Shown: in pieces, positions 41,168 to 44,300 of the stretch
How positions within the stretch are numbered: position 1 is the stretch's first letter
Layout of the letters: every line of letters begins with the position of its first letter
Source: Escherichia coli
GTDB taxonomy: Bacteria > Pseudomonadota > Gammaproteobacteria > Enterobacterales > Enterobacteriaceae
Direction: 5' to 3' (one strand)
NCBI RefSeq assembly: GCF_003018255.1
Contig: NZ_CP027440.1
Length of the DNA stretch: 64,000 nt
Notes under the pieces: generated by a model
What the model was told of the DNA's origin: nothing
Databases searched by the model: none
What the model saw: only the letters and a program-made list of their open reading frames with translations
Translations under genes and position numbers: made by a program

Positions 41168-41293
41168 ATCATGATTGGACGGTGTAAGGACAACACCAAC
41201 AAAAACAGGAAGTTAGCAGTCTCAGCAAGACACCGACCAGACGGTGAGGAGACATAAAAGGATACGCAAAGGAGCCGCGGCTCCTGGTGATAT

Positions 41294-41319
41294 GAAAGCC
41301 CACAGATGTGGGCTTTTTC
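41294..41319 (+). terminator. hairpin terminator between ssrA and the convergent autotransporter gene
   Basis: agcccaca-gatg-tgtgggct followed by TTTTT; 9 nt from ypjA stop. Confidence 0.6.
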
Positions 41320-41327
41320 GTTGATGG

Positions 41328-44300
41328 TCAGAACGACCAGTTCACACCAGCCACCGCGTTCCACGGGGATTCCACACCGGCACCATGGCTATACCCCACC
41401 CCGAGATGCCCGCTTAACGAACTGCTGAATGAGGCTTTAATACCTGCCTGGTATATTCCACGTCTGCCCGACAAATCATTGACAAAATTACCGTCATTAT
41501 TCACTTTCACCCGGTTATCATCGACAAATTCTTTGCGCACAGCCGCCTTCAGCCACGGCTCAACTTCCATGCCGTTCCCCAGACGCATGTTGTAACTCAG
41601 CGTTGCGCCCAGTTCACGATATATACTACGGGTATCGACTGATTTCGATTCCATGCCATTGGATAAATGATATTCGGGGTTATCAGCGGTGAACCCCGTT
41701 AACGATGCATACGGCGTCAGGTTCCAGTTACCATCGGTAAATCGCATCCCGGTTTCAATGTGACCGCCCAGCCCGTTGCTGCGATAACTGCCGTTGGCGG
41801 CTCCACCGCTGCTCATTTTACCGGCTACGTTACTTTCAAAGCGGTTCAGCTTCACGATACCGTCCAGATAGAAACCACTTTCATGTTCCCAGCTGGCATA
41901 GCCCCCCAGAGAATAACTGCCCACACTGCCATGCCCTCCACGATCAAAAAAGATATGTGTATGGGAATAACCCATAAAAGCGCCCAGCGTCGCAATCCCC
42001 TCAGGAATATCATTACGGCTATCGATCCCCACCGTCATTCCGGTCAGCGTCTGCTCAAACCCGGCACCCGCATCGGTGGTGACATTATTACGGGTGTTAT
42101 ACGTCGTCCCCCAGACATTATTGTTGTGTGGACTCGCTTTCATTATGTTCAACCGCTCGCGAATACTGTTTAGCTCAGCATCAAAGACCAACGGTAATGT
42201 TGCTGCCATATTGAGTACGGCTGCCGTAGAAGGCGTGATGCGTTTCTCCGGGACGGGTGTCGGCGTTGGATCGGGAGTCGGGTCTGGTTTCGGATCCGGT
42301 TTTGGGTCTGGTTTTGGATCCGGCTTCGGATTTGGGTTGGGGTCCGGGTTGGGTTTGACATCATTGGTCAGGTTCCAGTTGCTGTTGCCATCGCTTTTCA
42401 GGACATACTCATAGGTCCCAAGATCAACGAAACCGCCGGTATTACCCAGCGTAAACGAAGCATCCCCTCCCCCTGTTTTCACCAGCGTCATCGCGTCGTC
42501 AGACTGAGGGCTGACGCCGGTATCCTGAACAAAGATTTTAAAATTGCCAGTGGCGTTGTTGTTGACGACCAGTTGATCGCCCCGGGAGCCTGCAACGTTG
42601 GTATGCAGGTAGAAATTACCGCTGCCGGAAAGTTCACTGGTGGTCAGCGTATTGTAGATACCATTAGTTGTGGCAGGCGCTGCTGTTTGTGCTGATAAAT
42701 AAACATCACCGTCGTTGAGGAGCAAACTATTTACTCTATATTCGCAGTTGCTGGTGCCTGCACAGGAATTATTGCTGTTAAGCCAGACACTGCCCCGGCT
42801 GGCAGCCGTCAGGTCGGCAAGCGTCGTATCGACACCATTTCCCAGAGTTAATGTCGCGCTATCGGTAATCCGGACCGCCCCTTCAAGTTTTACTGGCGTA
42901 ACATTATCCCGTGGCGTCATTAACGACAGGCTTCCTGTCGCGCCACTGACCGATGCATCCGCCAGCGTACCTGAGTAGACGATTGCCGTCCCGCCAGCAA
43001 CCTGTAGATCTTCTGCCCGGGCCAGAACCTGAAACTCATCTTTTGACCGACCGAGGGTATATTGCCCACCAGAATTAACCTTTGTGGCGAAGTCCTGCCC
43101 CAGGTTTTGCATTGCCCCACCGTTGCCAACCGTGGAATCGCGAGCTTCGGTACCTGCTAATACCAATAAATTACCGCCATTTTCCAGCAGTACATTGGTC
43201 GCTAAATATCCGGCAATGGAAAAGGTGCCGTACTGGTGCGTACCGCTGATTTCAATACCGTTAGCCGTGCTCGTCTGGAGAGCGGCACCGCTGTTCTGGA
43301 CGATATCTGTCGCTTTGCCATTATCGTTGACTGTCAGCGTTCCGCCTTCATTGATCGTTGTTTTTATTGCCTCTCCGTTAGCTGAAACTGTTTGTATTCC
43401 GCCGTCGTTAATTGTTGTCTCATTTGCCACACCCTCGACGATTTGTTCACCGCCAGTGAGCGTCGTGCCAGTCGCAGTGGCTTTTGTTTTGACGATCTCC
43501 CGACCGCCCGCATTGACCTGTGTTTTGGCGGAAGTGGTGTCTGACTCCACGGTTAACACGCCGCCATTTGTCAGCAGGATATTGTTCGCCGCACCCTGCT
43601 CGATGCTGAACGCGACGCCATCAGCGCGTGTCCCTGTGACCCGCGTCGCCCTGGTGGTTGCAACCAACGCGCCCTGACTACTCTGCTGTATCCCCGTTGC
43701 GCTGCCTTTCTCCCGCACATCGAGTGTGCCGCCGTCATTAAGCACCGAGTTTTCAGCCAGACCGCCCTCATTAACTACCTGTGAACCGCCATTAATAATG
43801 GAACCTTCCGCTGTCCCGTTTGCCATAATTTGTTGTAAGCCAGAGACGATATCGGTATTGATCGCCTTACCATAATTCTGAACGGTTTGTGTGCCGCCAT
43901 TGATGTGCGTTTTGTCTGTTGACCCACCATCAACAATTTGTTCACCACTTTCAATATTTGCATCAGTGGCTAAACCATATACCGTTTGCTTGCCACCTTT
44001 GATATTTGCTTTATCAGAAGTGGCACTGGCATATATTGTTTGGGTGCCCGCACTATTGAGTACAGTGCCAACATCTTTTCCATAAACATCCATTTTGCCG
44101 TTGGCATTAATAATCGTATCAACTGCCCGGGAACCAGTGACGACTGTTAATGAGCCAGCGTTTTCCAGCACTACATTTTTAGCTTCTGAATTCCTGATGT
44201 AGAAAGCATCACCATAACTGTTGGTTCCTTCGATAAGGGTTCCGGAAGTCGTGGAAGCAATTAATGCGCCGCCGGATTGTTGCTCAACATGCTTAGCCTC

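What the first reader, a model, noticed from the sequence alone, without database searches (positions are those of the whole stretch)
41168..41330. tmRNA 3' end is unoccupied: no integrase or prophage, only a shared terminator before a convergent autotransporter gene
In E. coli K-12 the ssrA 3' end is the attachment site of the CP4-57 cryptic prophage, with an integrase gene immediately downstream. Here ssrA ends at 41167 and the next gene, 160 bp away and convergent, is the ypjA-like autotransporter, with no integrase, att repeat or phage gene. This looks like the empty (ancestral or excised) state, so this genome lacks the ~20 kb island present in K-12.
Basis: partly seen in the sequence, partly recalled or inferred. 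Interest (0 to 1): 0.4.

Follow-up and report, generated by a model that had tools for sequence, protein, structure and literature searches.

The report
Empty tmRNA attachment site, conserved trailer
The tmRNA gene here has no island inserted at its 3' end, which is true of about half of all complete E. coli genomes, but the 160 bases after it are a structured transcript tail with its terminator, conserved across enteric bacteria, not just a terminator.

Summary
ssrA is at 40805-41167 (+). The ypjA ORF ends at 41328 (-). The 160 bases between them contain no integrase, no att repeat and no phage DNA.

The window is a clean attB. Its left half matches K-12 attL and its right half is colinear with the DNA to the right of K-12 attR. 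The ssrA 3' end is wild type (CGCCAGCTCCACCA). It lacks the deltaT357-type scar that CP4-57 excision leaves, so the site is of the never-damaged, ancestral type.

This state is ordinary: 2532 of 5426 complete E. coli genomes have the same contiguous junction. The two nearest genomes differ by 2 SNPs in 24 kb of flank and carry an 11.4-kb P4-like satellite at this exact position.

The phrase 'only a shared terminator' is wrong. Bases 41168-41318 are the native ssrA 3' trailer plus its intrinsic terminator. This stretch is 70-90% identical across enterobacterial genera, while the DNA on both sides is unalignable. It is detectable as far as Xenorhabdus and Proteus. It folds into hairpins with compensatory changes and a G-U bias on the ssrA strand. 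Some temperate phages carry a copy of it in their attP.

No Rfam family and no paper in the searchable library covers it. Its function is untested.

The parts
40761..40790 (+). Promoter-like site upstream of ssrA (TGGTCA, 18-nt spacer, TATACT, with TG extension)
   Evidence: Consensus scan only. Its position fits a short 5' leader before 40805. Function was not tested.
40805..41167 (+). ssrA (tmRNA), tag peptide ANDENYALAA, with a wild-type 3' end ...CGCCAGCTCCACCA
   Evidence: ARAGORN. Rfam RF00023, 292.8 bits, full length. The 3' end was read directly.
41143..41167 (+). Unoccupied attB segment: the 3'-terminal ~25 nt of ssrA, which recur as degenerate copies at attR of ssrA islands
   Evidence: K-12 attR has TTCAGACTCCGCCAGC-CCACCA. 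JNE23-011 attR has TTCAAACTCCGCCAGC----CCA. Only one copy is in the window.
41165..41178 (+). Palindrome CCAAUCAUGAUUGG spanning the tmRNA CCA end (predicted hairpin H0)
   Evidence: Present in 41 of 44 family members. The other three, including phage phiNP, have a CUUUAGA-type start. Because it hardly varies, it neither supports nor refutes pairing.
41181..41197 (+). Trailer hairpin H1: GGUGU / loop AAGGACA / ACACC
   Evidence: The stem covaries. One pair is AU:19, CG:14, UA:10. Another is AU:22, GC:15. G29 and A31 of the loop GGAC are invariant and G30 and C32 are conserved in at least 90% of sequences.
41198..41218 (+). Conserved unpaired A-rich linker with CAGGAAG
   Evidence: The CAGGAAG positions are each conserved in roughly 90% of sequences or more. 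The stretch is unpaired in the consensus fold.
41219..41253 (+). Trailer hairpin H2: outer stem GUCUC/GAGAC, inner stem ACCG/CGGU, loop ACCAGA
   Evidence: Outer-stem pair 63:91 is UA:21, UG:15, CG:4, AU:1. The inner stem shows compensatory changes in Mangrovibacter (AU to GC, CG to UA). In the virus-derived sequences this core was fixed by my search pattern.
41265..41289 (+). Trailer hairpin H3: CGC...GUG enclosing GGAGC/GCUCC
   Evidence: 91-98% of cells are paired. Changes on both sides occur (CG to UA). On the minus strand the same palindrome followed by UUUGCGUAUCCUUUUA was flagged as terminator-like.
41295..41318 (+). Intrinsic terminator of the ssrA unit: AAAGCCCAC-AGAU-GUGGGCUUU, with 5 U in all
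   Evidence: Folds at -15.4 to -15.6 kcal/mol on the + strand and -14.3 on the - strand. It is conserved in genera without ypjA, with a compensatory change (CAC/GUG against CGC/GCG). All alignment is lost immediately after the T run.
41328..46031 (-). ypjA/ehaD-like AIDA-type autotransporter, convergent with ssrA, stop codon at 41328-41330
   Evidence: ORF list. Pfam AIDA 7e-141, Pertactin 5e-45, Autotransporter 1e-45. Annotation of homologous genomes.

Best explanation
Region 41168-41330 is the native, undisturbed 3' flank of the ssrA transcription unit. The integration target used by ssrA-specific integrases, the last ~7-40 nt of ssrA, is unoccupied and unscarred. As a result ssrA remains joined to its own trailer (41168-41294) and its own intrinsic terminator (41295-41318).

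Inferred mechanism: RNA polymerase starting at the ssrA promoter finds no terminator before 41295-41318. The primary transcript is therefore tmRNA plus a ~150-nt structured trailer. The mature CCA end at 41167 must then be made by endonucleolytic cleavage and 3' trimming, which releases the trailer with its terminator hairpin.

ypjA ends 9 nt beyond the terminator. It can at best borrow the terminator in the reverse direction, where only UUU follows the stem.

When an island such as CP4-57 or a P4-like satellite integrates, it supplies its own short trailer and terminator at attL and moves the native trailer to attR, away from the ssrA promoter.

Shown: the empty site, the homology relations, the conservation, the covariation and the phage-borne copies. 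Inferred: co-transcription, processing, and any function of the trailer.
For: Empty attB:
- The window is colinear with K-12 attL on the left and with the flank right of K-12 attR on the right.
- There is no att repeat, integrase or island DNA.

Unscarred:
- The 3' end is CGCCAGCTCCACCA.
- CP4-57 excision gives CGCCAGC-CCACCA, which inactivates tmRNA (PMC10107115).
- The satellite in the nearest genomes has attR CGCCAGC----CCA.

Common and ancestral:
- 2532 of 5426 complete E. coli genomes have the contiguous junction.
- The exact junction 20-mer is present in E. whittamii, Escherichia sp. E1V33, Klebsiella, Enterobacter, Citrobacter, Lelliottia, Trabulsiella, Mangrovibacter and Tatumella.

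Conserved trailer:
- Identity to the window is 86-90% in Klebsiella, Citrobacter and Enterobacter and 70% in Tatumella.
- For comparison, smpB coding DNA is 78-82% identical where it aligned, the smpB-ssrA spacer 12-49%, and the 78 nt after the terminator 32-40%.
- A profile of the trailer alone finds it directly after ssrA in Xenorhabdus (E 1e-18) and Proteus (E 6e-8).

RNA structure on the ssrA strand:
- 96% of cells are paired, against ~40% when partners are slid.
- 12 pairs change on both sides, against 5.3 +/- 1.3 in shuffles (0 of 500 reach it).
- There are 86 G-U cells against 22 A-C cells.
- No conserved ORF exists.

Phage copies:
- Phage LLS carries the last 39 nt of ssrA plus the full trailer and terminator next to its annotated attP.
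- Phage phiNP and a 43.7-kb circular element carry it too.

Island-supplied substitutes:
- The CP4-57 and JNE attL trailers are unrelated short hairpin-plus-terminator units.
Against: Nothing contradicts the empty-site reading, but several limits apply.
- A past occupation by an element with an undamaged attR (P2- or CTX-type rows of Table 1, PMC10107115) would leave no trace.
- Transcription through the trailer, its release and its stability have not been observed.
- K-12 and other strains with a displaced trailer make functional tmRNA, so the trailer is not needed for tmRNA function.
- Part of the alignment is ascertained. The junction 20-mer fixed columns 1-20 in the genome set, and the 18-mer GGACACCGACCAGACGGT fixed the H2 core in the viral set.
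- The shuffle control does not correct for relatedness.
- Cross-genus similarity could be inflated by phage-mediated exchange of trailer copies.
Confidence: 0.9

Rival explanations
1. Excised state: this lineage once carried an ssrA island, for example the P4-like satellite of its nearest relatives, and lost it by site-specific excision.
For: The two nearest genomes (2 SNPs in 24 kb of flank) carry an 11,419-bp satellite exactly at this site, so gain or loss was very recent. Elements with an intact attR copy would excise without a scar (Table 1 of PMC10107115).
Against: The satellite's attR is damaged (CGCCAGC----CCA). CP4-57 excision has been shown to transfer such damage into ssrA (deltaT357; PMC10107115). 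The window's ssrA is wild type. The next-closest genomes (98.4-98.5% identity) are mostly uninterrupted over the region, so gain in the JNE lineage is the more parsimonious event.
Confidence: 0.1
2. Degraded rather than empty site: ypjA and the DNA beyond it are the remains of an old island that entered through ssrA.
For: The block 41320-52075 is absent from E. whittamii and Escherichia sp. E1V33, where the ssrA terminator is followed within ~0.45 kb by the glaH upstream region. The block is low in G+C (33-39% at 46-52 kb). It holds a recombinase fragment at 46241-46507 (PF00239) and a tRNA gene.
Against: The recombinase fragment is a serine invertase (pinH), not a tyrosine integrase. It lies right of attR in K-12 too, so it is outside CP4-57. 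There is no ssrA 3' repeat anywhere. An element entering through the ssrA attB would separate ssrA from its native trailer or duplicate the trailer. The window has one trailer copy, and it is adjacent to ssrA.
Confidence: 0.05
3. The spacer is functionally only a (bidirectional) terminator. The rest looks conserved because phages that carry a trailer copy keep re-seeding it across genera, or because it serves as attP arm DNA for them.
For: Phage-borne copies exist and are mosaic. A prophage flanked by a phage trailer and a host trailer could be deleted by homologous recombination, leaving a chimeric trailer. RGAC motifs recur at roughly 11-nt spacing by eye, which could suit DNA binding.
Against: Host copies follow host taxonomy: the H1 variants are specific to Escherichia, to Klebsiella/Enterobacter, and to Citrobacter. 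Compensatory changes, and 86 G-U against 22 A-C cells, point to selection on an RNA of the ssrA strand. Conservation stops exactly at the terminator in every genus.
Confidence: 0.12

Closest known systems
attB/attL/attR of cryptic prophage CP4-57 at ssrA in E. coli K-12 (Kirby et al. [quoted passage not shown] 2009; Onodera et al. 2022, PMC10107115)
   Same: Same locus and same target: the 3' end of ssrA. The window's junction is the recombinant of K-12 attL-left and attR-right.
   Different: Here the site is unoccupied and ssrA is wild type. In K-12 a 22-kb element sits there, attR is damaged (the annotated 14-bp psaA copy lacks T357), and excision produces an inactive tmRNA.
P4-like satellites carrying defence cargo in E. 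coli, here the element in strains JNE23-011 and JNE112863
   Same: It integrates at exactly this position in genomes otherwise almost identical to the window. Its gene set is int, psu, delta, sid-like, epsilon and alpha primase-helicase.
   Different: It is absent from the window. It carries AriA/AriB (PARIS-like) cargo and supplies its own short ssrA trailer and terminator.
3' external transcribed spacers of stable-RNA operons that persist as RNAs, e.g. 3'ETS-leuZ of glyW-cysT-leuZ (Lalaouna et al. 2015, from memory)
   Same: A conserved segment between the 3' end of a tRNA-like gene and the operon's intrinsic terminator. It would be released by 3' processing with a terminator hairpin at its end.
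   Different: Nothing is known about accumulation, Hfq binding or targets of the ssrA trailer. The resemblance is architectural only.
attP sites that carry long host homology to rebuild a tRNA operon, e.g. Haemophilus phage HP1 (from memory)
   Same: Phage LLS carries the last 39 nt of ssrA plus ~150 nt of trailer and terminator next to its attP core. Integration would therefore rebuild the whole 3' part of the unit.
   Different: The P4-type islands at the same gene do not do this. They replace the trailer with an unrelated short one.
Csr/Rsm-type CsrA-titrating RNAs (CsrB, CsrC, RsmY, RsmZ; from memory)
   Same: About 150 nt ending in an intrinsic terminator. There are five to six AGGA motifs, one in a hairpin loop whose stem covaries, plus a CAGGAAG heptamer like the CsrB repeat.
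   Different: No Rfam Csr/Rsm model matches on the ssrA strand. GGA alone is not enriched over dinucleotide shuffles (6 against 4.0). The divergent Proteus-type trailers keep few GGA motifs. Binding is untested.

Membership tests
Unoccupied attB of ssrA-targeting integrative elements | An intact target gene contiguous with the sequence that flanks attR in lysogens | tested here: met
   Three-way alignment of the window, K-12 attL and K-12 attR. The insertion in JNE23-011 begins at the base after CCACCA.
Unoccupied attB of ssrA-targeting integrative elements | No second (partial) copy of the target's 3' end and no integrase or element genes nearby | tested here: met
   Pattern searches. blastn-short, blastn with both islands, and tblastn with three integrases.
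Unoccupied attB of ssrA-targeting integrative elements | No excision scar in ssrA (deltaT357 or larger deletions) | tested here: met
   The window reads CGCCAGCTCCACCA. The scar types are listed in PMC10107115, Table 1.
Degraded prophage or island remnant at ssrA | Integrase fragments or decayed att repeats between ssrA and its native flank | tested here: not met
   Nothing lies between ssrA and its trailer. The only recombinase fragment (46241-46507) belongs to the serine-resolvase family, is 5 kb away, and is also outside CP4-57 in K-12.
Intrinsic (Rho-independent) terminator | G+C-rich hairpin directly followed by a U run on the transcribed strand | tested here: met
   + strand: 9-bp stem, 4-nt loop, 5 U in all, -15.4 to -15.6 kcal/mol. 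It is conserved with compensatory changes across genera.
Intrinsic (Rho-independent) terminator | The same hairpin serving the convergent ypjA ('shared' terminator) | tested here: inconclusive
   On the - strand the stem is followed by UUUCAUAUC only. A second terminator-like site for the - strand lies at 41279-41265. The terminator is conserved where ypjA is absent.
Conserved structured RNA element (3' trailer of ssrA) | Sequence conservation above that of neighbouring non-coding DNA | tested here: met
   70-90% identity, against 12-49% upstream of ssrA and 32-40% downstream of the terminator. nhmmer E-values down to Proteus.
Conserved structured RNA element (3' trailer of ssrA) | Base pairs maintained through compensatory changes, with strand-specific G-U pairs | tested here: met
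   The caveats are pattern-ascertained columns and a shuffle control that ignores phylogeny.
Conserved structured RNA element (3' trailer of ssrA) | The RNA is made and accumulates | not testable with these tools
   No expression data are available. That the trailer is transcribed is inferred from the absence of any terminator between 41167 and 41295.
Csr/Rsm-type CsrA sponge | Many GGA motifs in loops or single strands, beyond what composition predicts | tested here: inconclusive
   AGGA occurs 5 times against 1.46 +/- 1.05 in dinucleotide shuffles (6 of 2000 reach it). GGA occurs 6 times against 4.0 (230 of 2000 reach it).
Csr/Rsm-type CsrA sponge | Match to a curated Csr/Rsm covariance model | tested here: not met
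   There is no + strand match at E <= 1. The only rsmX hit is on the opposite strand at E 0.14.

The most novel reading that the evidence does not exclude
The ~150-nt trailer is not a passive tail. It is a functional RNA of Enterobacterales, made in step with the very highly expressed tmRNA and released by 3' processing. It could be a protein or sRNA sponge, for example for CsrA or Hfq, or a cis element tuning tmRNA maturation. Because K-12, O157:H7 EDL933, CFT073, RS218 and Salmonella LT2 all have elements at ssrA (PMC10107115, Table 1), the trailer in at least K-12 sits at attR, cut off from the ssrA promoter. That would explain why it has gone unnoticed. It would also mean that island integration at ssrA changes host regulation even when tmRNA itself is restored.
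Probability: 0.2. Interest if true: 0.65.

Novelty: new member of a known kind. Interest (0 to 1): 0.3.

Why it matters
The finding as written does not matter much. An unoccupied ssrA site is the state of about half of sequenced E. coli genomes and has been part of the tmRNA-island literature since 2003.

Two things are of some use.

First, the window and strains JNE23-011 and JNE112863 form a near-isogenic pair: 2 SNPs in 24 kb, with or without an 11.4-kb PARIS-like P4 satellite. This pair dates a very recent acquisition and gives a clean reference attB.

Second, the native ssrA trailer is more conserved than the smpB coding sequence. It is structured, is copied by some phages, and is absent from Rfam and from the PGAP annotation of the E. 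coli genomes examined here. If it has a function, standard laboratory strains are natural 'uncoupled' mutants, and the test is simple.

Tried and rejected
- Second att copy, integrase or island DNA in the window: none found.
- A small protein in the spacer: the 28-codon ATG ORF at 41171-41257 is interrupted by TGA/TAG in the Klebsiella- and Enterobacter-type sequences, and the variation is compensatory rather than synonymous. Two longer overlapping ORFs have no Pfam match.
- A known RNA family: only tmRNA reaches threshold. The weak isrB and rsmX hits are on the wrong strand at E > 0.1.
- Trailer pairing with tmRNA or with the anti-Shine-Dalgarno sequence: no better than shuffles (263 of 300 and 91 of 300 shuffles at least as good).
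- Counting scarred empty sites with a deltaT357 junction query: of the 13 listed exact matches only a laboratory strain (DTU-1) lies under an annotated ssrA. The one other match inspected (KL53) is the attR of a P2-like prophage with a long ssrA duplication. The count was therefore not usable.
- The 54-nt wild-type junction count (3309 genomes) is inflated by such attR sites, so I used the 240-nt query instead.
- The ten Bacteroidota matches to the junction 20-mer lie in a conserved coding gene and are unrelated.
- Literature: no paper in the searchable library contains the trailer sequences or describes an ssrA trailer RNA in enterobacteria. Williams 2003 (PMC142792) is not held, so I could not check whether it already shows this conservation.
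Full report
**1. The observation**

ARAGORN and the Rfam tmRNA model both place ssrA at 40805-41167 on the + strand, with tag peptide ANDENYALAA. The next ORF is 41328-46031 on the - strand. It is 1567 aa with AIDA repeats, a Pertactin domain and an autotransporter beta domain. Homologous genomes annotate it as ypjA/EhaD. The spacer is 41168-41327, 160 nt.

Nothing in the 64-kb window repeats the 3' end of ssrA:
- the 25-mer with up to 3 mismatches and the 15-mer with up to 2 mismatches match only ssrA;
- blastn-short with the last 80 nt gives only chance matches.

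Neither CP4-57 nor the satellite of strain JNE23-011 has any DNA homology in the window. Three ssrA-associated integrases give no tblastn hit better than E 0.3.

**2. Comparison with K-12**

In MG1655, CP4-57 is annotated at 2755941-2777971 (22,031 bp). intA starts 204 nt after ssrA, and a 14-bp pseudo-ssrA copy ('psaA') lies at the right end, followed by ypjA.

In a three-way alignment the window follows K-12 attL up to ...GCTCCACCAA. It then follows the DNA to the right of K-12 attR (ATCATGATTGGACGG...) through to ypjA, with only a few substitutions. The window is therefore the attB recombinant.

**3. How common the empty state is**

A 240-nt query centred on the junction is contiguous in 2532 of 5426 complete E. 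coli genomes, or 47%. In the remaining genomes the trailer half of the query is found elsewhere. Those matches begin 6 to 36 nt before the end of ssrA, which reflects the different island families and crossover positions at this gene. The empty state is ordinary.

**4. Ancestral or excised**

Three lines of evidence bear on this.

(a) Experiments show that CP4-57 excision transfers the attR defect into ssrA (deltaT357, CGCCAGC-CCACCA) and inactivates tmRNA. Similar attR damage is tabulated for many P4-type elements (PMC10107115, section 2.1 and Table 1). The window has the wild-type CGCCAGCTCCACCA.

(b) The two nearest genomes, JNE23-011 and JNE112863, differ from the window by 2 substitutions in 24 kb of flank. 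They carry an 11,419-bp insertion starting at the base after CCACCA. The insertion is a P4-like satellite with these genes:
- integrase;
- psu;
- an ogr/delta-like gene;
- a sid-like gene;
- epsilon;
- alpha primase-helicase;
- an AriA/AriB (PARIS-like) cargo pair.

Its attR reads CGCCAGC----CCA. By analogy with CP4-57, excision would leave a 4-nt deletion in ssrA, which the window does not have. The next-closest genomes (98.4-98.5% identity) are mostly uninterrupted.

(c) The exact junction 20-mer occurs in E. whittamii, Escherichia sp. E1V33 and about ten other enterobacterial genera.

Together these favour a never-damaged, ancestral-type site, with recent gain of the satellite in the JNE lineage. 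A past visit by an element with an intact attR cannot be excluded.

**5. What the 160 nt are**

The genome-collection scan unexpectedly showed that the sequence after ssrA is conserved far beyond E. coli. It aligns from the CCA end to an intrinsic terminator. Every genus then diverges completely right after the T run.

Identity to the window, by segment:

| Segment | Identity to window |
|---|---|
| Trailer, Klebsiella / Citrobacter / Enterobacter / Pseudenterobacter | 86-90% |
| Trailer, Trabulsiella | 80% |
| Trailer, Tatumella | 70% |
| smpB coding DNA (where it aligned) | 78-82% |
| smpB-ssrA spacer | 12-49% |
| 78 nt after the terminator | 32-40% |

A profile built from the trailer alone (nhmmer) gives these hits:
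- a single hit in the window at 41168-41318, E 6e-46;
- the K-12 attR flank, E 3e-43;
- a hit directly after ssrA in Xenorhabdus, E 1e-18;
- a hit directly after ssrA in Proteus, E 6e-8.

These loci were retrieved through SmpB. Where an integrase or island follows ssrA (Hafnia, Pantoea, other Proteus and Xenorhabdus loci), the trailer is replaced by a short CP4-57-type hairpin plus terminator.

**6. Structure of the trailer**

RNAalifold on 15 sequences predicts a hairpin across the CCA end, three further hairpins and the terminator. I then counted pairs on 44 distinct sequences:
- 96% of cells form standard pairs, against about 40% when the partners are slid by 1-3 columns.
- 12 pairs change on both sides, against 5.3 +/- 1.3 in shuffles (0 of 500 reach the observed value).
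- The clearest case is H1 (41181-41197). One pair is AU, CG or UA in 19, 14 and 10 sequences. Another is AU or GC in 22 and 15. The loop GGAC is almost invariant.
- G-U cells outnumber A-C cells 86 to 22. The structure therefore belongs to the ssrA-sense strand.

There is no conserved ORF. The 28-codon ORF at 41171-41257 is broken by stop codons in other genera.

Two caveats apply. The junction 20-mer and the 18-mer used for the viral scan fix some columns by ascertainment. The shuffle control also does not correct for relatedness.

**7. The terminator**

The hairpin at 41295-41318 has the longer U run on the + strand. It is conserved, with a compensatory change, in genera that have no ypjA. 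It is therefore ssrA's terminator.

ypjA stops 9 nt from it and sees only UUU after the stem in its own direction. A second terminator-like site for the - strand lies at 41279-41265. 'Shared' is possible but unproven.

No other terminator lies between 41167 and 41295. From this I infer that the trailer is part of the primary ssrA transcript.

**8. Phage copies of the trailer**

A distant search of phage genomes found the trailer in three phages:
- Escherichia phage LLS carries a 39-nt 'tmRNA pseudogene' plus the full trailer and terminator beside its annotated attP.
- Citrobacter phage phiNP carries a copy.
- Phage Ayreon carries a partial copy with no ssrA part.

A 43.7-kb circular element of E. 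coli CT01 also carries it. At least 120 viral contigs contain the trailer core.

Such elements would rebuild the entire 3' part of the ssrA unit on integration. P4-type islands instead substitute an unrelated short trailer.

Host copies follow host taxonomy, while phage copies are mosaic. This argues for vertical inheritance under constraint in the hosts, with some horizontal traffic on top.

**9. Function of the trailer**

Function is not established. Strains with a displaced trailer have working tmRNA, so the trailer is not essential for tmRNA.

AGGA motifs are enriched (5 against 1.46 expected; 6 of 2000 shuffles reach this), but GGA is not. One GGA sits in the H1 loop and there is a CAGGAAG heptamer. 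This recalls CsrA-binding RNAs. However, no Csr/Rsm model matches and the divergent Proteus-type trailers keep few such motifs. Pairing with tmRNA or with the anti-SD sequence is no better than chance.

I regard a cis role (termination and insulation, or 3' processing) or a released 3'-derived RNA as the main options.

**10. What lies beyond ypjA**

The block 41320-52075 contains:
- ypjA;
- a serine-recombinase fragment;
- DUF5507 and DUF5508 ORFs;
- a tRNA-Ile2 gene;
- an amylase-like ORF.

Its G+C falls to 33-39%. It is absent from E. whittamii and Escherichia sp. E1V33.

The block is accessory DNA next to the ssrA terminator. It did not enter through the ssrA attB, because ssrA is still joined to its single trailer copy.

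**11. Verdict**

The spacer is more than a terminator. It is a conserved, structured ssrA trailer that I could not find in Rfam, in the genome annotations examined or in the searchable literature. I could not read Williams 2003, which may already mention this conservation.

Noticed in passing
L003 11169-22587 (E. coli JNE23-011, NZ_AP045067.1): The genomes nearest to the window carry an 11,419-bp P4-like satellite at ssrA. Its cargo is an AAA ATPase plus a DUF4435 protein, matching AriA (5e-32) and AriB (5e-9), so it is PARIS-like. The flanks differ from the window by only 2 SNPs in 24 kb.
   Followed up: partly
window 41320-52075: A ~10.7-kb block is missing from E. whittamii and Escherichia sp. 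E1V33. It holds ypjA, a pinH-like serine-recombinase fragment at 46241-46507, DUF5507/DUF5508 ORFs at 47132-48292, a tRNA at 49049-49124 and an intact 750-aa amylase-like ORF at 49682-51934. In those two species the ssrA terminator is followed within ~0.45 kb by the glaH upstream region. G+C drops to 33-39% at 46-52 kb.
   Followed up: partly
window 49049-49124 (-): ARAGORN calls this tRNA-Met (CAT). The nearest annotated genome calls the same gene tRNA-Ile, the ileY type whose CAU anticodon is modified.
   Followed up: no
L073, L082, L093, L119 (IMG/VR contigs), attR junctions: Copies of the same P4-like satellite family have attR with 1-, 4- or 5-nt deletions after CGCCAGC. L137 and L151 have deletions running into the trailer's first hairpin. 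This fits the reported tendency of this integrase type to damage attachment sites.
   Followed up: no
window 41228: The window has A (CAAGAC) where most genera have G (CAGGAC) in the H2 internal loop, and K-12 has CAAAAC. An otherwise highly conserved motif is therefore polymorphic within E. coli.
   Followed up: no
L032 ~3000-3118 (Escherichia phage Ayreon, MF807953.1): A partial trailer copy (nhmmer E 5e-30) with no ssrA 3' part and no terminator. It overlaps a promoter annotated by the depositors. It could be a relic of module exchange or an independently expressed copy.
   Followed up: no
L021 (CACSKA010000005.1, labelled Chryseobacterium sp. 18061): This contig carries an enterobacterial-type ssrA 3' end and trailer. 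The label therefore looks like contamination or a mislabelled assembly.
   Followed up: no
L007, L010, L014, L015, L017, L019, L022-L024, L026: The 20-mer GCTCCACCAATCATGATTGG also occurs in Flavobacteriia and Bacteroides, inside a conserved protein-coding region. This is a coincidence unrelated to tmRNA.
   Followed up: partly
window 41328-46031 (-): The mechanical ypjA ORF starts at a GTG and gives 1567 aa. RefSeq annotations of near-identical genes give about 1522-1524 aa, so the real start is probably downstream of the first in-frame start codon.
   Followed up: no
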